Shown here piece by piece: positions 6,065 through 16,955 of a stretch of DNA of 61,763 nt. Both the position numbers and the translations under genes were made by a program. Under the pieces are notes generated by a model, which worked only from the letters and a program-made list of their open reading frames with translations, made no database searches and was not told the DNA's origin. Source of the DNA: Gallionellaceae bacterium (GTDB lineage Bacteria > Pseudomonadota > Gammaproteobacteria > Burkholderiales > Gallionellaceae); assembly GCA_003445795.1 (NCBI GenBank), contig DMCN01000066.1, positions 23,294 through 85,056 of the forward strand, written 5' to 3'. Numbering within the stretch: position 1 is the first letter of the stretch; every line of letters starts with the position of its first letter.

Positions 6065-6376
6065 TCAGCCGCCCCAGTATTTCTTCGGGCGTGCGATGCC
6101 CGGATCGCACTCGACCGTATATTCAGCCAAATCCGTTCCGTAACGCGTCAGGTCGGCGAACCAGCGACCTGACGGTTGCTTATCCAGCAACACCAGCTCG
6201 CGGTCGGAGAGATAGTCCAGCACGCGCCGCACTTCGAGCGCTGTGGCATCTGGAAACATGCCCTGCACGGTGGCCAGGATCAATTCCTCGTATGCACCGA
6301 CTGGGCTAGCGTTGTACAACGTCAGGATAACGAGCCAGCGCATGGTCTCGCGGCGGACTTTTTCTTGGTCAATCAT
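6065..6376 (-). CDS. Mu gp26-like winged-helix protein
   Basis: 'LDYLSDRELV...LTRYGTDLAEY...PGIARP'; ATG at 6376 chosen for its overlap with the upstream stop. Confidence 0.75.
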   Translation of the reverse strand: MIDQEKVRRETMRWLVILTLYNASPVGAYEELILATVQGMFPDATALEVRRVLDYLSDRELVLLDKQPSGRWFADLTRYGTDLAEYTVECDPGIARPKKYWGG

Positions 6377-6728
6377 TTTTTCTTGCCCCCTGTATTTGAA
6401 CCACCTCAAGTTTGCTGTACAGCGCATCCAGCTTGGATTCGATCACCGTCTGCCCACGTATGTAGTCTTCGCGCCTGACATACAGCACCGGCAAGCTGAT
6501 TTGGAAGGCTGAAAAATCCTTTTCAAACTGGCGCAGTTGTTCGGCCACTTTGATGTCTTCGGCCGCGCGCTTGGTCAGATCGGAGTTGATCGATGTAAAA
6601 CGCTGGTCCAGCAGCGCCTTGAACTGTTTCACCAGAATCGTCCCGAATGCCCACACCACCAAGGCAAAGGCCACAATGCACGATGCAATGCCGGTGATCA
6701 GTTGCCACAATTCAATCTGCACTTGCAT
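6369..6728 (-). CDS. Membrane-anchored coiled-coil protein (Mu gp25-like)
   Basis: N-terminal transmembrane helix then 'LPVLYVRREDYIR...IESKLD'; conserved position before gp26. Confidence 0.65.
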   Translation of the reverse strand: MQVQIELWQLITGIASCIVAFALVVWAFGTILVKQFKALLDQRFTSINSDLTKRAAEDIKVAEQLRQFEKDFSAFQISLPVLYVRREDYIRGQTVIESKLDALYSKLEVVQIQGARKND

Positions 6729-6960: not shown

Positions 6961-7245
6961 TTAAAGGTTGCTCGGTGACACAGACAGTTCGCCCTGGCAC
7001 GCGCCCTGATAAGGCGCATCCGTCTCCCAGCGATACTTCCAGGTGCCCTTCTCGGTCAGCGCCACATCGCACTGGAACGAGCCGACACCCAGCCGGGTTA
7101 CGGTGCCGGGGTAGGTGTAATTCGTGGTGACACCGGCGGGTGTCTTTACCTTCAGCGTCGCCGTGGCGGGGTCGGCAGCCGCGCCCGCCATATCCTTCAC
7201 CTGCATCGATATGCGCCCCATCTCGCCTACCAGCCAATTAGCCAT
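6961..7245 (-). CDS. Hypothetical all-beta (Ig-like) protein
   Basis: Beta pattern 'TLKVKTPAG...GVGSFQCDVALTEKGTWKYRWET'; start overlaps the upstream stop. Confidence 0.6.
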   Translation of the reverse strand: MANWLVGEMGRISMQVKDMAGAAADPATATLKVKTPAGVTTNYTYPGTVTRLGVGSFQCDVALTEKGTWKYRWETDAPYQGACQGELSVSPSNL

Positions 7246-8293
7246 GCGCCACCTCCGCAGTCAGGCTTGCCACACGGCTGAGTGAATCGCTCAACGTCCA
7301 CAAGCGCAGCGCCTGCGCGCTGTGGCTGCTTGTGCGGCCCACAGACGGCGTGATCGAGGCGAGTCGTGCAATGCCAGCCGACAGGGCCGCGATGCGCGCC
7401 ACAGCCCCGCTGAGGCGCACCGGGTGCATCAGCATGAAGACGGTCAGGCTGCCGCTGGCCAGCGCCTGCGCCAGGGCATCGGCGCTCAGCGCGATGCGGG
7501 CCGTCAGCTCACCGGCGGCACCAACCAATGCGGCGGCTGGGCCAGTCAAGTGGATCTGCGTGGTGAGGATCGCGGCGGCGCTGGCCTGCGCTTGCGCAGC
7601 GCCTTCCAGTTGCGCGGCAGGGCCGGTGAAAGCGCCGCTGGCGCTGGCTTGGGCCGATGCATCGCCCGCCAGCGGGATAGCGCTGGTCAGCCCGGCAGCG
7701 GCCACGGCCTGCGCCAGCGCACCGCCGCCCAGCGTTATCTGTGCGGTAAGTTGTCCGTTGACGGTGACCAGCGCGATGGCGGCCCCGGACAGCGAGATCT
7801 GCGCGGACAGGTCGCCCGATGCGCCAACGCTGGCGATAGCTGCGCCGCCGAGCGAGATGCCAGATGTCAGCGCGGCGCTGGCATTGGCTTGTGCGATGGA
7901 ATCGGCATACAGCTTGATGGCAGTAGTGAGAGCGCCGGTGGCCGCAGACACCGCAACAGCGGCACCGGCCAGTTCGGCAGCAGATCCGCCGACCGTCAGA
8001 TCGGCGGCGGCTGTAGCCTGCGCAACCGCATCGGCATTGAGCCTGATCGCAGCATCGAGCGCGCCGGTCGCCGTGGCCAGCGCGACGGCATCGGCGTTGA
8101 GTTGTATTGCAGATGACAGCGCGCCCGTGGCAGCGGCCAGCACTGCGGCATCACCCGCCAACGCGGCAGCGCCCGCAGAGACGGTGAACAGGTCGTCTTC
8201 AAGGACCAAGGCAGAATCGGGCGCATCCCAGGCGAACTCATCGCCTATCCATGCGCCTTCGTCCAGATCGTGCTGAAAGTTATCTCTCTGCAT
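7238..8293 (-). CDS. Ala/Gly-rich repeat protein, putative fibre shaft
   Basis: About 12 tandem ~20-aa repeats (I-x-L-x-G/A-x-A-x-A-x-A-x-A-x-G-x-L) followed by ~10-aa repeats. Confidence 0.7.
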   Translation of the reverse strand: MQRDNFQHDLDEGAWIGDEFAWDAPDSALVLEDDLFTVSAGAAALAGDAAVLAAATGALSSAIQLNADAVALATATGALDAAIRLNADAVAQATAAADLTVGGSAAELAGAAVAVSAATGALTTAIKLYADSIAQANASAALTSGISLGGAAIASVGASGDLSAQISLSGAAIALVTVNGQLTAQITLGGGALAQAVAAAGLTSAIPLAGDASAQASASGAFTGPAAQLEGAAQAQASAAAILTTQIHLTGPAAALVGAAGELTARIALSADALAQALASGSLTVFMLMHPVRLSGAVARIAALSAGIARLASITPSVGRTSSHSAQALRLWTLSDSLSRVASLTAEVAHG

Positions 8294-8296
8294 GGC

Positions 8297-9127
8297 TTAT
8301 CCGTGAAGGAGCTTGCCGCGCCCCTTTACCGTTCCGGTTGAAGTGGCCGTGCAAAGCATCAATCCCATCAAGCATGCATCGTTGCGAATCTTGGGGAAGC
8401 CGAGTTGCGCATAGGTGAATAGCGCCGTTTTGTTGGCTACGGCTTCTGTGGACATCTCGGTGCGGTGCCTTGTGCAGGTGATGCCGAAGTTGCCTGCCGT
8501 ACCTGTCGAAGCAGACAGGGTGACGCTGTTCACGCCACGGATGAACTTGCCGTTGGTCACCAGCGTATGCAGCGGAGTCATCCGGCCTGCAGGCATCGCT
8601 GTGCCGCCGATGGCGATGGCGGTAAGGTTGCCGGTAGTGCCGTCGCCATACGTGACGTTAACGGTAGCGTTGGAAGCCGTTGCGCCTGTCGCGGTGTACC
8701 ACTCCAACCACCAGGACAAATCGGAGTAATCTACATCGCCCAGGCGCTCTGCGGCCGGTGCAGTCACAGTTAGATCACAGCTCGTTGTGTTCTGCCCGGT
8801 GGTGACGTTGCCTACCAGTCCACCGAAATGAAGCAGTCGGTCGTGGATCTCAAGGTTGTTGTTCGCGTTGCCCGTTTGCAGCGTGTGCCAGCCGATGTAG
8901 GAGACCGCAGGGTCGGTCTGATTCGTGAACGGATGCGCGCCTGCCAAGGCGCTGGTGCAGACCGCAGAAGCTGCCGGGATAGCCGCCTGTGTCGGAATTC
9001 CCGTTGCTCTCCAGAGCGAGCAGTAAGTACCGGCCACCTGCGTGGCGATGGAAGCCTTGTCCCAGACCAGTTTTTCGTGCTGGTTTCCAAGCTTACTCAC
9101 CAGCGCATCGCGCGTATCGATGGTCAT
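8297..9127 (-). CDS. Hypothetical Thr/Gly-rich beta protein, probably structural
   Basis: 276-aa ORF translationally coupled to its neighbours; beta-rich composition. Confidence 0.65.
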   Translation of the reverse strand: MTIDTRDALVSKLGNQHEKLVWDKASIATQVAGTYCSLWRATGIPTQAAIPAASAVCTSALAGAHPFTNQTDPAVSYIGWHTLQTGNANNNLEIHDRLLHFGGLVGNVTTGQNTTSCDLTVTAPAAERLGDVDYSDLSWWLEWYTATGATASNATVNVTYGDGTTGNLTAIAIGGTAMPAGRMTPLHTLVTNGKFIRGVNSVTLSASTGTAGNFGITCTRHRTEMSTEAVANKTALFTYAQLGFPKIRNDACLMGLMLCTATSTGTVKGRGKLLHG

Positions 9128-9288
9128 ACGGCCTCCAGATAGGAAGCATCGAAGCCGCCCGCATCCTGATCGAGGATGAAGACGGTCGTTCCGTCCGGGT
9201 TATTCACGATGTCTGCGATGGTGTAGACGCCGGGAAAAGACTCGGCGAACACCCCGACAACGCGCACTGGCTGGCCGATTGCGAACAT
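9124..9288 (-). CDS. 54-aa hypothetical protein (below ORF-track cutoff)
   Basis: MFAIGQPVRVVGVFAESFPGVYTIADIVNNPDGTTVFILDQDAGGFDASYLEAV; fills the gap exactly and its stop overlaps the next ATG. Confidence 0.7.
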   Translation of the reverse strand: MFAIGQPVRVVGVFAESFPGVYTIADIVNNPDGTTVFILDQDAGGFDASYLEAV

Positions 9289-9291
9289 GGC

Positions 9292-9795
9292 TTAGTTGTC
9301 GAGCTGCAAGGTGGCTGCGCCCGCCGCAAAGCTGGGGGCGGCATCGCCGTTGTTGATCGTCTTGGGCGTGGTCAAGGCGGTGCGCCATAGCAGGTTGCCC
9401 GAGGTGGACGCATCGAACACGCAGTACTCGGTAACCAATCCCCAGCTCGCCGTGGGTGCCGGGAAGGTGATCGCGGCGTTGTTACTGGTGGTGCCGCCCG
9501 TACCGCTTGATGCGGCGGTGCTGCCAGCCGATTGCGTACCCGCCCAGTTAGCCAGGCTGGAGGTGACCGCCACCCTGGCATAGCTGCCGCCCGTGACCTC
9601 GGTGCCGCAGGCCGCATCCGACCCGGTGCTGGTCGCCAGCGCGACGTACACCGTGACGGGCATGGTGTACGCCTGGCCGCGCAGCAGTGCGTCGACGAGC
9701 TTGTTTTCGAGGTAGTCGGAAAGTGCACCGGCTTGCACCACAGCGGTGAAAGCCAGCAGCAACAGTCCGGTGATGAGGCGTTTAACTTTGTTCAT
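9292..9795 (-). CDS. Phage fibre-associated structural protein ('SDYLENKL' family) with an N-terminal signal-peptide-like extension
   Basis: AAGGA RBS; MNKVKR-LITGLLLLAFTAV-VQA/GALSDYLENKL; core 'GTEVTGGSYARVAV', 'ITFPAPTASWG', 'FDASTSGNLL'. Confidence 0.75.
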   Translation of the reverse strand: MNKVKRLITGLLLLAFTAVVQAGALSDYLENKLVDALLRGQAYTMPVTVYVALATSTGSDAACGTEVTGGSYARVAVTSSLANWAGTQSAGSTAASSGTGGTTSNNAAITFPAPTASWGLVTEYCVFDASTSGNLLWRTALTTPKTINNGDAAPSFAAGAATLQLDN

Positions 9796-9807
9796 GTCGT
9801 CGTCCTT

Positions 9808-10050
9808 TTAACGGTGAGAATCGCATTCGGCCAGCTTACGGAGCTGGTCGCGGCATTGGCTGTAAAGCTCCATCGACTCGATGTGGTTGTCGCGCAAGTC
9901 CGCCAACCTTCCCGACTTCGCCGGTGGCGGTGCTGGACAATCGGTAGTCAAGTTTGCCGAGCAGGGGCGCGGCTGTATTAGCGTTGGCTGCGTTCCAGAG
10001 GCGCAGGCTGTTAGCATCAAGGCTGCAATCAGCGGTAACAGGGTTTTCAT
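9808..10050 (-). CDS. o-spanin (Rz1-like lipoprotein)
   Basis: Lipobox LTAC, Pro-rich, second Cys; overlaps the 3' part of the i-spanin. Confidence 0.85.
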   Translation of the reverse strand: MKTLLPLIAALMLTACASGTQPTLIQPRPCSANLTTDCPAPPPAKSGRLADLRDNHIESMELYSQCRDQLRKLAECDSHR

Positions 10051-10291
10051 TGGCTTTCTCCTTGATCGTTCGGTACACCACACGGATCTGCTCGCGCGAG
10101 GTTTCGCGCGACTGGGCTACTTGTTCACGGCCTGTATTGGTTTCGTCCACCTTGGCTTGCGCGGCCTGCTGCGCTTGGGTTTGGTCGATGGCGCAGGCGG
10201 ACGACGCATGCTTGTCGCCATAGGCGTAACCGATACCGAACAGCGCGATAGATGACACAACCACGGCCAGCCAGTAGTTGAACGGGCTCAT
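9836..10291 (-). CDS. i-spanin (Rz-like)
   Basis: N-terminal TM, coiled coil, 'CSLDANSLRLWNAAN'; follows the holin. Confidence 0.8.
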   Translation of the reverse strand: MSPFNYWLAVVVSSIALFGIGYAYGDKHASSACAIDQTQAQQAAQAKVDETNTGREQVAQSRETSREQIRVVYRTIKEKANENPVTADCSLDANSLRLWNAANANTAAPLLGKLDYRLSSTATGEVGKVGGLARQPHRVDGALQPMPRPAP

Positions 10292-10524
10292 TCCATCCTC
10301 CCCAGACCAAACATCAGCGGGGCTGTGGTGACGACACGCAGCGCAGTGTTGGCGACCGGAATCAGGATCGCCAACCACTGGTAGATTTCAGGCGATACCA
10401 GCGGCTTGATGGCCTCGTACTTCACTTCCAGCACGATGCCGATGGCCGAGAGCAGGTTCACCCACAGGGTGCGGGACTTGTACCAGGGCTTGAGTTCGAC
10501 GACGCGCGCCACTTGAGTGTCCAT
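10288..10524 (-). CDS. Holin-like membrane protein
   Basis: Two hydrophobic segments, 'WYKSRTLWVN'; lies between endolysin and spanins. Confidence 0.75.
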   Translation of the reverse strand: MDTQVARVVELKPWYKSRTLWVNLLSAIGIVLEVKYEAIKPLVSPEIYQWLAILIPVANTALRVVTTAPLMFGLGRME

Positions 10525-10532
10525 GTGATTTC

Positions 10533-11003
10533 CTATGCGACGGTGTTGCGTGAGAGGGAAAGCCCGGCGGTATAGCTGACGCGGCCCTTGTCAAAATGGG
10601 CGGTCAACTCTTCGCAGCGATTGTTGTGGCGGGAAATAGCGAGATGCACCCACGCCCCTTCGTGGATGAGCTGGTCGTAATCGATCAGCGACCCGGCGAT
10701 CTTTTGTGCCACTTCCAGCGGGCTACCGAAGTCAGGGGCGATGAAGTCGACAGCCAAGCCATGCATGTGCGCACTGGTCTTCGCCCCGCCGATGGCCGCA
10801 TTGAGCGCCGGGCAGCGATAGCCGCTGCTGATGTAGATCGGAACGCCCAACTGCGCGCGCACACGCTCCATCGTGTCGGCAAGCAATCCAAGATTGCGCA
10901 CCACCTCGAAAGGCGGGTTGCTGTTGTTGATGCCCAAACGCAGCGCGGTGTCCGAGCGCAGCATTTCGTCCAGGGAAAAGTGATCAGTCAGGCGGAGTTT
11001 CAT
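10533..11003 (-). CDS. Endolysin, peptidase M15 family
   Basis: 'LTDHFSLDEM', 'ISSGYRCPALN..IGG...SAHMHGLAVDF', 'WVHLA'. Confidence 0.9.
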   Translation of the reverse strand: MKLRLTDHFSLDEMLRSDTALRLGINNSNPPFEVVRNLGLLADTMERVRAQLGVPIYISSGYRCPALNAAIGGAKTSAHMHGLAVDFIAPDFGSPLEVAQKIAGSLIDYDQLIHEGAWVHLAISRHNNRCEELTAHFDKGRVSYTAGLSLSRNTVA

Positions 11004-11161
11004 GCCTTGCTCCAGCGCGAAGGCTCAATCAGGCAAAGGGATCGCTCAACGGTGTAATGCCCCACCGGACGCTTTGCGCATGAGCCGTAGTAATCCATGC
11101 GCGGATCGGTATGGCGCGTCCAGTTGGCACAAGTGCCGCAGGTGTGTTGAGGTGTGTTCAT
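11000..11161 (-). CDS. 53-aa four-cysteine mini-protein, first gene of the left late arm
   Basis: MNTPQHTCGTCANW...GSCAKRP...CLIEPSRWSKA; stop overlaps the endolysin ATG; missed by the ORF track. Confidence 0.65.
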   Translation of the reverse strand: MNTPQHTCGTCANWTRHTDPRMDYYGSCAKRPVGHYTVERSLCLIEPSRWSKA

Positions 11162-11217: not shown

Positions 11218-11244
11218 AAAAGAAAAACCCCGCACTGGGCGGGG
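11216..11244 (-). terminator. Intrinsic terminator of the repressor/accessory operon
   Basis: CCCCGC-N5-GCGGGG hairpin followed by a T-rich tract on the minus strand. Confidence 0.75.
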
Positions 11245-11277
11245 CTGGTTCAGTAGAGGGTGTGCGATTATTTATTT

Positions 11278-11727
11278 TTAGTAGAGCGTTCTCACTCGCA
11301 CGTATTTTTCAGTCATGCTTCGCGCGGAATCCTCTGGCAATTCATTGAAATCTGCTACGGTTGAAATGTCGTAATTGTAGAAATAGGACTTTCCAGCTTC
11401 GCATTTCACGAGCCTAGGGGTTGCATAAGGACCAGAAATCCAATGTTCTCCAGGAACAACATCCTTCACCACATAGCTACCTGGTGCAAGTCTCGAAATC
11501 TCTCGTCCATCAATAGAAAGTGGCCATGCACCTACCGCCCCGAGTAGCATCACCTCGCGAATAATTACCAAAGTGGCCTTTCCTTCGGTGGGTTTCGAGA
11601 TGAATTTCCCTTGTTCGTCATGTTTAAATTCAGGCGGGACAACTGCACATCCGGCAAGCAATATTGTCAACAAAGCAAATGGGATAAGCGCTCTTTTCAT
11701 GTATTTCTCCATGTCAAATCTTCTCAA
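11278..11727 (-). CDS. Accessory lipoprotein (DUF2846-like)
   Basis: Lipobox LAGC; 'KATLVIIR...LSIDG..I..LAPGSY...V.PGEH.I...CEAGKSYF'; the true start may be a downstream Met. Confidence 0.75.
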   Translation of the reverse strand: MRRFDMEKYMKRALIPFALLTILLAGCAVVPPEFKHDEQGKFISKPTEGKATLVIIREVMLLGAVGAWPLSIDGREISRLAPGSYVVKDVVPGEHWISGPYATPRLVKCEAGKSYFYNYDISTVADFNELPEDSARSMTEKYVRVRTLY

Positions 11728-12412
11728 CCACCACGGCTGTGCCGCTAGCCACGAGGAATAGCATACTCTTCCCGCCCCCGGATATCTCGCTGTAGTCCAG
11801 ATCCACGCCGATCACAGCATTGGCGCCGAGGCGGTCGGCTTCTGCCTTCAGGTTGACCAGGCAAGATTCACGCGCTTCGCGCAGTTCGTCTTGCAACGAT
11901 CCGCTGCGACCGCCGATCGCATCCGTAATGCTGGCAAAAAACTCCCGGATCACATTCACGCCGCCGACGTATTCGGCGGTGATGATCTCGCGGTGGTCAA
12001 CGATGCGATACCCTTCCAGTTGCGGCGCGGTGGTGGTTTTGATGCTGGATACGCGACGCATCCACTCTTCCAGCTTGGCCTGCTTTTGGGCTTCCCTTTC
12101 CTGCTCGGAAAGGATCTCTGATTCTTTTAGAAACCCGCTCAAAACCTCACCGACACCCTCGATCACTGTGTCCTGTATTGGGTATGTAACAAGCGAAATA
12201 CCCAACGACCCAGCTGCCACGCGATGGTTAATGACTTGCCTGTTGCGGATCACCACCAGGTCGTTTTCAGCGCCAACATTAGCGGGTGAAACTAAATCCC
12301 TGATCGTTTCGAGTTCGAGGCCGTTGTATTTGTACAGCACATCATGCACGCGAATACCCAGCTTTGCGGCTTTCCCAGTTGGATCGACATCGACAACAAC
12401 GAGACCTGGCAT
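11714..12412 (-). CDS. PDZ-like domain fused to a YbjQ/UPF0145 domain
   Basis: N-terminal 'VVVDVDPTGKAAKLGIRVHDVLYKYNG'; C-terminal 'TTAPQLEGYRI...GGRSGSLQDELREARE...GANAVIGVDLDY...LVASGTAV'. Confidence 0.8.
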   Translation of the reverse strand: MPGLVVVDVDPTGKAAKLGIRVHDVLYKYNGLELETIRDLVSPANVGAENDLVVIRNRQVINHRVAAGSLGISLVTYPIQDTVIEGVGEVLSGFLKESEILSEQEREAQKQAKLEEWMRRVSSIKTTTAPQLEGYRIVDHREIITAEYVGGVNVIREFFASITDAIGGRSGSLQDELREARESCLVNLKAEADRLGANAVIGVDLDYSEISGGGKSMLFLVASGTAVVVEKI

Positions 12413-15179: not shown

Positions 15180-16955
15180 ATGGCGATGAACGAGCCAGCA
15201 ACCCTCAAGGTACAGGACGCCCTGCGCGAACTCGCGTGCCTTCTGGACGCAGCGCCGCATGGCGAGCGTTCGGCCATGATCGATGCCTTCGCCGAGATGT
15301 ACCAATGGGGAAGAGGCCGGGTCTACAACCGCCTGAAAGAGGTGGGTTGGTCCAGCGGCCGCAAGACGCGCTCGGATTGCGGCACAACCTCGCAGGACAT
15401 GGCCGTGCTGACCGACGTGTGCGCCACGCTGCGCATCGGCCAGCGCAAGAACGGCAAGGCTACCATGCACACGCCAACCGCCGTCTCCCTGTTATCGCAG
15501 AACGGCCGCGAGATCACCGTCTCCAACAGCCGCGTCAACGCGCTGCTCAAGGCCAACCAGATGAACATGGCATCGCAGCGCCTGGACCGCGCCGCACAGT
15601 CCATGCGTTCGCTGCATCCCAACCATGTGCACCAGGTAGACCCGTCGCTGTGCCTGATCTACTACATGCCGGACGGCAAGCAACGCATCATCCAGGAAGA
15701 CGAGTTCTACAAGAACAAGCTGGAGAACGTTGCCAAGCTCAAACTCAAGGTGTGGCGCTACGTCCTCACCGACCATTTCAGCAACACCACCCTCGTGCGC
15801 TACTACCAGGCCAAGGGTGAGACGCAGGCCAACCTGTTCGACTTCCTGCTGTATTGCTGGAACAAGCAGGAAGGCCGCGTTATGCACGGAGTCCCGCAAA
15901 TGCTGTACTGGGACAAGGGCAGCGCCAACACAGCCGGTGCGATCAAGAACGCGCTGCGCGCCCTGCAGGTCGAGGCCATCGAACACAAGGCCAAGAACCC
16001 CCGCGCCAAGGGCTCCGTTGAGAACGGCAACAACCGTGTCGAATGCCTGTTTGAAAGCCGCCTGATGTACGAGCCGGTCGAGAACGTGGACCAGCTCAAC
16101 GCCGCCGCCGAGGGCTGGTACAACGCCTACAACGCCGACGCCATCCCCAACTACGACGCGCGCCTGCATCGCAAATACATGGCTGAGCCAACGGCGCGCT
16201 ATGCCCTGTGGCAGATGATCCGCCGCGAGCAGCTGCGCATCCTGCCGCAGGTAGACCTGTGCCGCCTGCTGCTCTCTGCCGACAACATCGAGCGCAAGGT
16301 AGACCAGGAACTGACCATCAGCTTCAAACACCCCGGCCCCAAGCAGCGCCTGCATTACGACGTGGGCCATATCCCCGGCGTATTCTTCGGCGCGATGGTT
16401 AAGGTATCGCCCCTGGTGTACGGCGAAAACCAAGTGCTGGTAACCGTTACGGACTACAAGAATGAAGAAACCACCCACATCGTTTCTCCCGTTGCTGCTG
16501 ATGCTGGTGGCTTCCGCGCCGACGGCGCCGTTTACGGTGAAGAATACAAATCTCGCCCCGATACCGTCATCGAGACGGCGGGCAAGGCCGCCGATCAGGC
16601 CGCCTATGCAGGGCTATCAATCGAAGAAATCGAAAAGGCCAAGAACAAGAACGCCGTCCCGTTTGGCGGCTTGGATGCTCACTCGCATCTGAAGGACGTA
16701 GCAGCGCCATCGTTCATGGATCGCCCTGGCGAACGCCTGAACGTGCCCAGCCCCATCCACGTCGAGATCAAGCCACTCACCCACACCCAAGCCTCAATGC
16801 GCCTGCGCAGCATGCTGGGAAGGCCGGTTACGGCTGAGGATCGGGCGCACCTGGTCGAGTGGTACCCGGACGGAATCATGGAAGAGAAGCTGCAGGAAGC
16901 GGCGGATCACCTGGATGGGAAGTTCGCGGCGCCGGTGCTGCGGTTGGTTGGCTGA
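15180..16955 (+). CDS. DDE transposase (MuA/B3-type)
   Basis: Catalytic triad context HQVDPS / LYWDKGSAN / RAKGSVENG; N-terminal 'RKTRSDCG' hook. Confidence 0.93.
   Translation: MAMNEPATLKVQDALRELACLLDAAPHGERSAMIDAFAEMYQWGRGRVYNRLKEVGWSSGRKTRSDCGTTSQDMAVLTDVCATLRIGQRKNGKATMHTPTAVSLLSQNGREITVSNSRVNALLKANQMNMASQRLDRAAQSMRSLHPNHVHQVDPSLCLIYYMPDGKQRIIQEDEFYKNKLENVAKLKLKVWRYVLTDHFSNTTLVRYYQAKGETQANLFDFLLYCWNKQEGRVMHGVPQMLYWDKGSANTAGAIKNALRALQVEAIEHKAKNPRAKGSVENGNNRVECLFESRLMYEPVENVDQLNAAAEGWYNAYNADAIPNYDARLHRKYMAEPTARYALWQMIRREQLRILPQVDLCRLLLSADNIERKVDQELTISFKHPGPKQRLHYDVGHIPGVFFGAMVKVSPLVYGENQVLVTVTDYKNEETTHIVSPVAADAGGFRADGAVYGEEYKSRPDTVIETAGKAADQAAYAGLSIEEIEKAKNKNAVPFGGLDAHSHLKDVAAPSFMDRPGERLNVPSPIHVEIKPLTHTQASMRLRSMLGRPVTAEDRAHLVEWYPDGIMEEKLQEAADHLDGKFAAPVLRLVG

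What the first reader, a model, noticed from the sequence alone, without database searches (positions are those of the whole stretch)
9730..9795. Sec-type signal peptide on a phage structural-family protein
Seen: MNKVKR (basic) - LITGLLLLAFTAV (hydrophobic) - VQA/G (cleavage motif), with a good RBS. Cleavage would expose GALSDYLENKL, which is where I recall homologues normally begin. Virion proteins usually assemble in the cytoplasm, so export or membrane tethering is unexpected.
Basis: partly seen in the sequence, partly recalled or inferred. Interest (0 to 1): 0.7.

Follow-up and report, generated by a model that had tools for sequence, protein, structure and literature searches.

The report
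Phage fibre subunit with export signal
A small fibre-building protein of a Mu-like prophage carries a genuine, conserved secretion signal and a matching cysteine pair, so it probably folds in the host periplasm, not in the cytoplasm where tailed-phage particles are built.

Summary
It lies on the minus strand: ORF 9292..9795, 167 aa, signal peptide encoded at 9730..9795.

- **Family.** Residues 24-164 are a full-length PF23140 domain, the fibre I subunit gp80 of podophage GP4 (PDB 8JOU). Solved and cultured-phage homologues start exactly where cleavage after Ala22 would leave the protein.
- **The presequence is selected.** All 120 closest protein clusters keep a basic / hydrophobic / AxA layout. 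Sequence identity there is about 26%, against about 83% in the mature part.
- **Cysteines track the signal.** Signal-bearing members almost always have exactly two cysteines, in fixed pairs (63+125 here, 58+138 elsewhere). Signal-less members have none or one.
- **Same gene cassette.** Both forms sit in one cassette: Gp80, variable proteins, a 20-residue-repeat "rope-like" protein, then a small Ig-like or Gp77 adaptor. The signal-bearing gene is the only Gp80 copy in the ten phage records searched whole.
- **Operon.** The gene is tightly coupled to the lysis genes in a late operon.

Best reading (about 0.45): the subunit is exported by Sec, cleaved and oxidised. It then joins the cytoplasmically built virion when lysis merges the compartments. 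An envelope role outside the virion is the main rival. No trained signal-peptide predictor, 3D distance check or experiment was available.

The parts
9796..9807 (-). 12-nt spacer between the Rz1-like stop (TAA, 9808-9810) and the start codon; it holds an AAGGA ribosome-binding site 7 nt before the ATG
   Evidence: Sequence read directly
9730..9795 (-). Signal peptide, residues 1-22: n-region MNKVKR, h-region LITGLLLLAFTAVV, c-region ending VQA. Predicted signal peptidase I cut between Ala22 and Gly23
   Evidence: Layout conserved in 120/120 closest clusters, with about 26% identity against about 83% in the mature part. AF2 predicts a helix at residues 2-17
9295..9729 (-). Mature Gp80-family domain, residues 23-167 (stop codon at 9292-9294)
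   Evidence: PF23140 E 7e-45, residues 24-164 = profile 1-128/128. PDB 8JOU_a phmmer E 7.6e-16. Foldseek E 4e-6, prob 1.0
9607..9609 (-). Cys63 codon (TGC), first half of the signal-linked cysteine pair
   Evidence: Invariant in 103 aligned signal-bearing homologues. Absent from signal-less members
9421..9423 (-). Cys125 codon (TGC), second half of the pair
   Evidence: Invariant in 103 homologues. Always co-occurs with Cys63
9124..9288 (-). 54-aa ORF starting 3 nt after the Gp80 stop; no family match
8297..9127 (-). 276-aa protein of the cassette (ATGA overlap with the 54-aa ORF). It directly follows Gp80 in loci L027, L028, L030 and L036; no family match
7238..8293 (-). 351-aa Ala-rich 'rope-like' protein with about 11-12 units of a 20-residue repeat (A-x-G-x-L-T-x-x-I-x-L-x-G-x-A...). 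Candidate docking strand for Gp80 dimers
   Evidence: Repeat mapping. Homologues sit downstream of Gp80 in 41/46 signal-bearing and 26/40 signal-less loci. The rope role is inferred by analogy with GP4 and A1002
6961..7245 (-). 94-aa Ig-like protein closing the cassette. It takes the position held by the GP4 gp77 fibre-tail adaptor family in relatives
   Evidence: AF2 pLDDT 92, seven-strand sandwich; generic Ig/filamin fold hits. L007 has a true PF23148 Gp77 at this position. No sequence link between the two
10533..11003 (-). Endolysin (Peptidase_M15_3), without a signal
10288..10524 (-). 78-aa holin-like membrane protein. In blastp against my reference proteins, ORFs at this position in L018 and L036 best match the DUF7940 protein of L007
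9836..10291 (-). Rz-like inner-membrane spanin (probable start MSPFNYW at 10291)
   Evidence: PHROG 8821 and 1152
9808..10050 (-). Rz1-like outer-membrane spanin lipoprotein (MKTLLPLIAALMLTAC...), embedded in the Rz gene
   Evidence: PF23793 LysC and PHROG 456
11226..11246 (-). Strong terminator-like hairpin that separates the repressor-side genes from the leftward late operon. No further strong hairpin and no promoter-like site on this strand through the Gp80 cassette; the only other minus-strand match is a weak 5-pair hairpin at 6601-6613

Best explanation
The gene encodes the dimer-forming 'bead' subunit (Gp80 family) of a chain-like accessory fibre of a Mu-like transposable siphophage. Here it is made as a Sec preprotein.

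Proposed course:
1. Late in infection it is co-transcribed with the endolysin, holin and spanin genes just upstream.
2. It is exported through SecYEG.
3. Host signal peptidase I cuts it after Ala22. This leaves GALSDYLEN..., the same N-terminal length as cytoplasmic family members.
4. The Dsb system oxidises Cys63-Cys125 in the periplasm.
5. The other fibre-module proteins lack signals and stay with the virion in the cytoplasm. These are the 351-aa rope-like protein with 20-residue repeats, the 276-aa protein and the 94-aa Ig-like protein.
6. The exported dimers therefore meet and decorate the rope only when the holin and endolysin merge cytoplasm and periplasm, that is, at or after lysis.

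Status of the steps:
- Shown: family membership, the signal-peptide architecture and its conservation, the signal-cysteine coupling, the shared cassette, the single gene copy and the operon layout.
- Inferred: export, cleavage, the disulfide, the rope partnership and the late joining.

My odds for sub-claims: exported and cleaved about 0.85; disulfide about 0.7; ends up on virions about 0.5.
For: **Family**
- PF23140 at 152.9 bits against a cut-off of 27, covering the whole profile.
- 8JOU_a by sequence and by fold.

**Signal peptide**
- Rule-based features are met and conserved in 120/120 close clusters.
- It diverges about three times faster than the mature part while keeping its hydrophobicity.
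- No twin-arginine motif and no lipobox here.
- The cut site leaves three residues before the SDY motif, as in Met-initiated homologues.

**Cysteine coupling**
- 39/39 signal-bearing domains have at least 2 Cys, against 1/46 signal-less ones (Fisher p 1.6e-23).
- In 112 further loci, 59/62 signal-bearing genes have exactly two Cys, against 0/50 signal-less.
- The cysteines come in fixed partner sets: 63+125, 58+138, a few at 57+123 or nearby, never the crossed combinations 63+138 or 58+125.
- C63 and C125 are invariant in 103 sequences.

**Same module as cytoplasmic forms**
- A rope-like gene lies downstream in 41/46 signal-bearing and 26/40 signal-less loci; adaptor-like genes occur in both.
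- Signal-less orthologues reach 69% identity in the same cassette (L019, L020).
- There is one Gp80 homologue in the host genome. There is also one in each of the 10 phage records searched whole, 7 of them at least 90% complete. No cytoplasmic paralogue could therefore supply the fibre.

**Repeated switching**
- The best tree needs 11 state changes, and at least 3 on well-supported branches.

**Late operon**
- Intergenic gaps are 12, 3, -4, 3 and -8 nt.
- There is no promoter-like site and no strong terminator between 11226 and the end of the cassette at 6961.

**Host machinery**
- The host genome encodes DsbA-family and signal peptidase I proteins.

**Host range of the trait**
- Signal-bearing forms were seen only in contigs assigned to diderm bacteria. 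The Gram-positive phage homologues (Psychrobacillus, Sporosarcina) show no sign of a presequence in tblastn, but their starts were not inspected.
Against: - No experiment or trained predictor supports export.
- No solved or proteomically characterised virion contains a signal-bearing member. All cultured-phage homologues listed lack the signal.
- The Cys-Cys distance could not be measured because model coordinates are not exposed. The AF2 model is also only moderate, pLDDT 68.
- The rope assignment rests on repeat architecture and synteny. It has no similarity to a solved rope.
- The window's 94-aa protein is not detectably Gp77.
- Some relatives would stay membrane-bound, which fits an envelope role better than virion attachment. 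P0013 and P0118 have a signal-anchor plus linker; P0143 has a clear lipobox and a Pro-rich linker.
- Assembly in the seconds around lysis has no precedent for tailed phages.
- The phylogeny-aware test of the signal-cysteine link is underpowered: 3 independent pairs on supported branches.
- Similar bold readings elsewhere in this scan were later priced low.
Confidence: 0.45

Rival explanations
1. Exported, but not a virion part. The periplasmic or membrane-bound Gp80 domain acts in the cell envelope during the lytic cycle. For example, it might bind host surface glycan or receptor material so that released progeny are not trapped on debris. It might also interfere with superinfecting phage, loosely as T5 Llp or Cor do. 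In this case the rope-like protein keeps a fibre role of its own.
For: - Membrane-tethered variants exist inside the same cassette: the lipoprotein-type P0143 and the signal-anchor types P0013 and P0118.
- In L004 the rope repeats are fused to LamG and beta-helix-like domains, so the rope could be a fibre in its own right.
- The gene often sits beside lysis and envelope genes.
- An earlier first-reader note, not checked, describes a look-alike 167-aa protein in another genome between a small membrane protein and a lipoprotein.
Against: - The window protein has no lipobox and no own promoter. It sits in the late operon, so it is not positioned for expression in the lysogen.
- It is the only Gp80 copy, while rope-like genes are kept in 41/46 signal-bearing loci.
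- The mature domain stays 60-75% identical to signal-less orthologues whose ropes are homologous. It should therefore still bind the rope once the compartments mix.
- A soluble periplasmic protein cannot reach the cell surface before lysis.
Confidence: 0.25
2. The hydrophobic N-terminus does not lead to productive export of the functional pool. A fraction stays cytoplasmic and assembles on the rope in the usual way. This could happen through inefficient targeting, an internal start, or an uncleaved flexible tail. Any disulfide would then form by air oxidation after release, as in some RNA-phage capsids (from my own knowledge).
For: - Textbook tailed-phage assembly is cytoplasmic.
- GTG codons at V19 and V20 could in principle start a MQAGALSDY... 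product.
- Relatives with long linkers show that N-terminal extensions occur in the family.
Against: - No RBS precedes the internal GTGs, and homologues keep no conserved internal start.
- The h-region is Leu-rich and strongly hydrophobic, with a canonical AxA site at a fixed register.
- The near-perfect coupling of the signal with a cysteine pair is unexplained if folding is cytoplasmic.
- Repeated gain of such a signal would be deleterious noise if it had no function.
Confidence: 0.12
3. It is a lysis-cassette accessory: a periplasmic regulator or effector of the holin, endolysin or spanin. It would have been recruited from a fibre domain.
For: It lies 12 nt downstream of Rz/Rz1 and is co-transcribed with the lysis genes. 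The same position after lysis genes is seen in L004, L007, L008 and L017.
Against: - Signal-less orthologues occupy the same cassette, and in L020 the cassette lies after the portal gene, away from lysis genes.
- Lysis adjacency is the normal Mu-type layout for everything between lysis and terminase.
- The protein has no similarity to known lysis regulators.
Confidence: 0.05

Closest known systems
Ralstonia podophage GP4 fibre I protein gp80 (Pfam PF23140; PDB 8JOU; Zheng et al. 2023 J Mol Biol 435:168258, as cited in PMC11445570 and PMC13730344)
   Same: Same domain over its full length and same fold. In GP4, gp80 dimers are strung on a separately encoded rope protein and attached through the gp77 adaptor. 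Here the gene likewise lies next to a repeat-bearing rope-like protein. In relatives it also lies next to a true Gp77-family gene.
   Different: GP4 gp80 is 140 aa, starts at the domain and has no cysteines at the paired positions. The window protein adds a 22-residue Sec signal and the Cys63/Cys125 pair. The phage is a Mu-like siphophage with a J-type central fibre, not a podophage.
Chain-like fibre dimers of Pseudomonas podophage A1002 (gp40/gp41) and Vibrio phage VP1 gp11 (PMC13730344)
   Same: Small Gp80-fold subunits form dimers that dock by beta-sheet augmentation on up to 11 sites of a rope-type protein. The window's rope-like protein has about 11-12 repeats.
   Different: There is no detectable sequence similarity. 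The unseen ~30 N-terminal residues of A1002 gp41 are not a signal peptide. The KPP25 orthologue (ORF007) starts MTSSAVILDGFIHRLVICDKDG....
Exported phage proteins beside receptor-binding genes: T5 Llp, Cor of phi80/N15/HK022, lambda Lom and Bor (from my own knowledge)
   Same: All are phage-encoded proteins sent to the envelope by the host secretion machinery and encoded near tail-fibre genes.
   Different: Those are lipoproteins or outer-membrane proteins with their own expression, and are unrelated to virion subunits. This protein has a signal peptidase I type signal, sits in the late operon, and is the orthologous, sole copy of a virion fibre subunit.
SAR (signal-arrest-release) endolysins and secreted endolysins (PMC7143992; PMC6116005)
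   Same: They are late phage proteins that use Sec to reach the periplasm ahead of lysis.
   Different: SAR domains are weakly hydrophobic, Gly/Ala-rich and uncleaved. This signal is Leu-rich with an AxA site, and the cargo is structural, not enzymatic.
Signal-peptide-bearing phage genes of unknown function in Porphyromonas phages (Matrishin et al. 2023, PMC10367356)
   Same: That paper gives published notice that tailed phages encode signal peptidase I substrates adapted to the host's secretion rules.
   Different: Those genes have unknown function and were read as host-physiology modifiers. No fibre family, cysteine coupling or comparison of signal-bearing with signal-less orthologues was reported.

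Membership tests
Pfam PF23140 (Gp80, GP4 fibre I subunit) | Matches the family HMM above the gathering score over the whole profile | tested here: met
   152.9 bits against a cut-off of 27; residues 24-164 = profile 1-128/128
Pfam PF23140 (Gp80, GP4 fibre I subunit) | Fold of the solved member (8JOU chain a) | tested here: met
   Foldseek top hit 8jou_a, E 4.1e-6, prob 1.0, TM 0.48/0.58. The AF2 model is only moderate, pLDDT 68
Pfam PF23140 (Gp80, GP4 fibre I subunit) | Protein of about 140-150 aa that begins at the domain (cytoplasmic product) | tested here: not met
   A 22-residue presequence precedes the domain. This is the variant feature
Pfam PF23140 (Gp80, GP4 fibre I subunit) | Encoded with a rope protein and a gp77-type fibre-tail adaptor | tested here: inconclusive
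   A rope-like repeat protein is present, but its role is inferred. True PF23148 Gp77 is found in relatives such as L007. The window's 94-aa protein is Ig-like but not detectably Gp77
Pfam PF23140 (Gp80, GP4 fibre I subunit) | Present in virions as dimers bound to the rope | not testable with these tools
   Needs virion proteomics or cryo-EM
Sec-type signal peptide cleaved by signal peptidase I | Positively charged n-region, 10-20-residue hydrophobic h-region, small residues at -3 and -1 | tested here: met
   MNKVKR / LITGLLLLAFTAVV / VQA|G. Same layout in 120/120 close clusters: -1 is A/S/G in 119, and -3 is A/V/S/T/G/L/I in all 120
Sec-type signal peptide cleaved by signal peptidase I | No lipobox (signal peptidase II) and no twin-arginine (Tat) motif | tested here: met
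   None in the window protein. Lipobox-like strings occur in 5/120 relatives and twin-arginine motifs in 0/120
Sec-type signal peptide cleaved by signal peptidase I | Positive call by a trained predictor (SignalP, DeepTMHMM) | not testable with these tools
Sec-type signal peptide cleaved by signal peptidase I | Experimental export and cleavage | not testable with these tools
   The host encodes signal peptidase I. The test needs PhoA fusions or N-terminal sequencing
Periplasmic disulfide-bonded protein | Conserved even number of cysteines, coupled to export | tested here: met
   39/39 against 1/46 and 59/62 against 0/50. Fixed partner sets. C63 and C125 invariant. DsbA family present in the host
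Periplasmic disulfide-bonded protein | The paired cysteines are within bonding distance in 3D | not tested
   Model coordinates are not exposed to the Python box
Receptor-masking or exclusion lipoproteins (Llp / Cor type) | Lipoprotein signal, and expression independent of the late structural operon | tested here: not met
   No lipobox. No promoter-like site; the gene is packed tightly inside the late operon
SAR (signal-arrest-release) domain | Weakly hydrophobic Gly/Ala/Ser-rich transmembrane segment without a cleavage site | tested here: not met
   The h-region is Leu/Phe/Val-rich, and an AxA site sits at a fixed register

The most novel reading that the evidence does not exclude
Tailed phages can build one virion in two compartments. 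Head, tail and the rope of the accessory fibre assemble in the cytoplasm. The bead subunits of that fibre are exported by Sec, trimmed by signal peptidase I and disulfide-locked in the periplasm. They snap onto the rope only when the phage's own lysis cassette merges the compartments. Within one structurally solved family (GP4 gp80), lineages have switched several times between the cytoplasmic and periplasmic routes, and each switch to the periplasm picked up a cysteine pair.
Probability: 0.35. Interest if true: 0.9.

Novelty: new variant of a known kind. Interest (0 to 1): 0.72.

Why it matters
Tailed-phage virions are taken to be completed in the cytoplasm. Known Sec-dependent phage proteins are lysis enzymes, spanins, exclusion lipoproteins or filamentous-phage coat proteins.

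This case offers a clean natural experiment inside a family with a solved structure:
- orthologous fibre subunits occur with and without a signal peptide;
- both occur in the same gene cassette;
- a cysteine pair appears only with the signal.

If the exported form decorates virions, several things follow:
- there is a late, lysis-coupled assembly step;
- phages have a route to disulfide-stabilised outer parts;
- some fibre proteins may fail to fold or assemble when expressed in the cytoplasm for structural or engineering work.

If it does not decorate virions, this is a new kind of envelope-acting phage protein derived from a fibre subunit. Either outcome can be tested with ordinary fusions, fractionation and virion proteomics.

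Tried and rejected
1. **A1002 gp41 lead.** The A1002 paper reports that fibre II gp41 (171 aa) lacks its first ~30 residues in the virion, and I suspected a cleaved signal peptide. A1002 is a Kochitakasuvirus. The KPP25 orthologue ORF007 (171 aa) starts MTSSAVILDGFIHRLVICDKDG..., which is not a signal. Rejected.
2. **Signal-bearing member in a cultured phage, to find proteomic data.** tblastn against 50,697 phage records gave 46 records. The 40 listed all match from about residue 24, apart from four that start between 11 and 21. The two of those that I inspected (H11, H19) have annotated starts without a presequence. None found.
3. **Megablast of the cassette against phage records.** No match.
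4. **Gp77 membership of the window's 94-aa protein.** There is no BLAST, Pfam or hhalign link. Its confident AF2 model gives only generic Ig/filamin hits, and 8JOU is not in the top 50. It is kept as a positional and fold-class analogue only.
5. **PDB sequence searches with the 351-aa, 276-aa and 94-aa proteins.** Only chance hits.
6. **Weak profile hits to the CsuA/B chaperone-usher pilin (E 0.7-2.4).** An attractive analogy, since those are exported, disulfide-bonded and assemble by strand complementation. The hits are not significant, so I did not use them.
7. **Cys-Cys distance.** The model files are not exposed to the Python box, so this was not measured.
8. **Phylogenetically independent test of the signal-cysteine link.** Only 3 supported pairs: 2 concordant, 0 discordant. 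Underpowered.
9. **Lipoprotein reading for the close family.** Lipobox-like strings occur in 5/120, but Cys is common in these h-regions (28/120) and each of the five keeps the AxA site. Not taken as evidence. P0143 does look like a true lipoprotein variant.
10. **Literature searches for Sec-exported virion parts of tailed phages.** Nothing found.
11. **NCBIfam.** No named family for any cassette protein.
Full report
**1. What is there**

The finding's coordinates hold the first 22 codons of a minus-strand ORF, 9292..9795, 167 aa.
- The ATG at 9793-9795 is the first start codon of the open frame.
- It lies 12 nt after the TAA of the Rz1-like gene and 7 nt after an AAGGA ribosome-binding site.
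- The peptide reads MNKVKR / LITGLLLLAFTAVV / (V)QA | GALSDYLENKL...

**2. Family**

- Residues 24-164 match Pfam PF23140 ('Podophage GP4 fiber I protein gp80') over the whole profile, 152.9 bits, E 7e-45.
- PHROG 240 also matches.
- The only PDB sequence match is 8JOU chain a, GP4 gp80, 140 aa. Its residues 3-138 align to query residues 24-164.
- An AF2 model (pLDDT 68) finds 8jou_a as its single significant fold match: E 4e-6, prob 1.0.
- All 40 listed tblastn matches in 50,697 cultured-phage records start at query residues 11-26, mostly 24-26. The two long-looking ones that I inspected have no presequence.

**3. Is the signal peptide real?**

No trained predictor was available, so I used rules and evolution.
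- All 120 closest 90%-identity clusters (70-89% identical to the query) carry an N-terminal presequence.
- Placing the cut three residues before the S-D-Y motif gives the following:
  - n-region charge +2 or +3 in 114/120;
  - an uncharged run of 12-23 residues;
  - position -1 A/S/G in 119/120, and position -3 A/V/S/T/G/L/I in all 120 (A, V or S in 111);
  - no twin-arginine motif.
- In a 103-sequence alignment the presequence columns are 26% identical to the query, against 83% for the mature part. Mean hydropathy of the h-region columns stays at 2.1.
- This is the signature of a translated, functionally constrained signal peptide. It argues against a mis-called start.
- The internal GTG codons (V19, V20) have no RBS.
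- The host genome encodes signal peptidase I and a DsbA-family protein.

**4. A second, independent mark of export**

I scored the mature domain against 1.84 billion cluster representatives. The best 150 fall into three groups:
- single-domain proteins that start at the domain;
- tandem two- or three-domain proteins;
- about 23 single-domain proteins with an N-terminal hydrophobic extension.

Cysteine content differs sharply between them.
- 39/39 signal-bearing domains have at least two Cys: 37 have exactly two and 2 have four.
- Only 1/46 signal-less domains does. Fisher p is 1.6e-23, not corrected for phylogeny.
- The cysteines come in fixed partner sets: 63+125 (the window's type), 58+138, and a few at 57+123 or nearby. 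The crossed combinations 63+138 and 58+125 never occur.
- C63 and C125 are invariant in the 103 close homologues.
- In 112 further loci from GTDB genomes and IMG/VR, 59/62 signal-bearing genes have exactly two Cys, and 0/50 signal-less genes do.

I read this as a periplasmic disulfide acquired after export evolved. Two caveats apply. I could not measure the 3D distance, because coordinates are not exposed. The phylogeny-aware test has too few supported contrasts.

**5. Context in the window**

The window holds a Mu-like transposable siphophage.
- On the plus strand: DDE transposase 15180-16955, head protease, major head protein, tape measure and a J-type central fibre.
- On the minus strand, left of the repressor region: lysis genes, the five-gene block, small and large terminase, portal and a Mu-F-like protein.
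- On the minus strand, a strong terminator-like hairpin at 11226-11246 precedes this order of genes:
  - a 53-aa ORF;
  - the M15 endolysin;
  - a holin-like protein;
  - Rz and Rz1;
  - signal-bearing Gp80;
  - a 54-aa ORF;
  - a 276-aa protein;
  - the 351-aa repeat protein;
  - a 94-aa protein.
- Gaps from Rz1 through the 94-aa gene are 12, 3, -4, 3 and -8 nt. No promoter-like site and no strong terminator lie on this strand through the cassette; the only other match is a weak hairpin at 6601-6613.

The gene is therefore a late-operon gene, not an independently expressed moron.

**6. The cassette is a fibre module, shared by signal-bearing and signal-less forms**

- The 351-aa protein has about 11-12 units of a 20-residue repeat.
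- Homologous repeat proteins follow Gp80 in L007 (310 aa), L055 (311 aa, 60% identical) and as the C-terminus of an 895-aa LamG protein in L004.
- The cassette ends with a protein of about 95-100 aa.
  - In L007, L018, L019, L022, L026 and others this is a true PF23148 'GP4 fiber-tail adaptor gp77' or a BLAST relative of one.
  - In the window, L004, L017, L020 and L055 it is a different 94-aa protein. That protein models confidently as an Ig-like sandwich but shows no link to Gp77.
- In GP4 and A1002, Gp80-fold dimers dock by strand augmentation on a rope protein held by an adaptor (PMC13730344, PMC11445570). The gene set here mirrors that arrangement.
- Signal-less orthologues up to 69% identical sit in the same cassette (L019, L020, L026).
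- Rope-like genes follow 41/46 signal-bearing and 26/40 signal-less genes.
- The best tree needs 11 changes of signal state, at least 3 on well-supported branches.
- The signal-bearing gene is the only Gp80 homologue in the host genome. It is also the only one in each of the ten phage records searched whole, seven of them at least 90% complete.

**7. Mechanism**

The robust part is this: the orthologue of a virion fibre subunit has been re-routed to the periplasm and has adapted to it with a cleavage site at the native N-terminus and a cysteine pair.

Where it then acts is inferred.
- The mature domain and its rope stay close to those of signal-less relatives. The two should therefore bind whenever they meet, and they first meet when holin and endolysin breach the inner membrane and wall.
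- I therefore favour lysis-coupled decoration of rope-bearing virions (about 0.45 for the whole chain of steps).
- The main rival (0.25) is an envelope-located role outside the virion. Relatives that look membrane-tethered support it: P0143, a lipoprotein with a Pro-rich linker, and P0013 and P0118, with a signal-anchor plus linker.
- Non-productive export (0.12) and a lysis-accessory role (0.05) fit the data poorly.

**8. Comparison and novelty**

- It is a member of PF23140 by sequence and fold, but fails the family's usual 'starts at the domain' architecture. It is a new variant of a known kind.
- I found no publication describing a Sec-exported fibre or decoration subunit of a tailed phage.
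- The nearest in print is a note of signal-peptide genes of unknown function in Porphyromonas phages (PMC10367356).
- Earlier notes of this scan describe signal-plus-cysteine patterns on other phage fibres. Later checks kept the observations but priced the two-compartment reading low. I treated these as leads and tempered my odds.
- This case adds a solved reference structure, an internal comparison of signal-bearing and signal-less forms within one cassette, and single-copy evidence.

**9. Limits**

- No SignalP run, no coordinates and no experiment were available.
- The AF2 model of Gp80 is moderate.
- The rope role is inferred.
- The locus counts are not de-replicated.
- Neighbour detection used BLAST against a small reference set, so absences are weak evidence.

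Noticed in passing
window 686-40300: The Mu-like prophage has a split late region. Lysis, fibre, terminase, portal, Mu-F and a 178-aa protein (PHROG 26) run leftward on the minus strand, left of the repressor region. Early genes run straight into head protease, capsid and tail on the plus strand. Each module is present once, so this looks like one phage with a non-canonical layout. Relative L007 has yet another arrangement, with early genes leftward and all late genes rightward. Misassembly of the MAG contig was not excluded.
   Followed up: partly
window 7238-8293 (-): The 351-aa Ala-rich protein has a very regular 20-residue repeat (A-x-G-x-L-T-x-x-I-x-L-x-G-x-A-x-A), about 11-12 units. It has no Pfam, PHROG, NCBIfam or PDB match. 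Homologues are fused to LamG and beta-helix-like domains in L004.
   Followed up: partly
window 11000-11161 (-): A 53-aa Cys-rich ORF (CGTC...C...C) is the first gene after the terminator-like hairpin, at the head of the late operon. It might be a small zinc-binding late regulator. No family match.
   Followed up: no
window 11278-12412 (-): Two genes lie between the repressor-like gene and the terminator. One is a 232-aa protein with a PDZ-like N-terminus (weak DegS/DegP hits) and a YbjQ-type 'heavy metal-binding' C-terminal domain. The other is a 149-aa lipoprotein. They are placed like lysogeny-expressed accessory genes.
   Followed up: partly
Representatives P0121-P0270: Tandem two-domain proteins (about 270-290 aa) are the most frequent architecture among the 150 listed Gp80-family representatives; three-domain ones (about 350 aa) also occur. 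They would be single-chain versions of the Gp80 dimer. Apart from the partial case P0157, none of them carries a signal peptide.
   Followed up: no
L055 91-588 and L053 6347-6739: Two genes next to membrane-tethered Gp80 variants are themselves exported proteins. One is a 165-aa Cys-rich protein with a signal peptide, upstream in L055. The other is a 130-aa lipoprotein (LLCVLAAC), downstream in L053.
   Followed up: no
L136 (Pseudomonas phage KPP25) 9714-10683: KPP25 ORF006 (147 aa) and ORF007 (171 aa) correspond to A1002 fibre I and fibre II. ORF007 is annotated 'hypothetical protein' and ORF006 'structural protein'. The N-terminus of ORF007 is acidic, not a signal peptide.
   Followed up: yes
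window 6369-6728 (-): A 119-aa protein matches PHROG 462 ('lipoprotein'). It sits where relatives have DUF2730 (Mu gp25-like), just before the small terminase. This is another envelope-type protein inside the packaging block.
   Followed up: no
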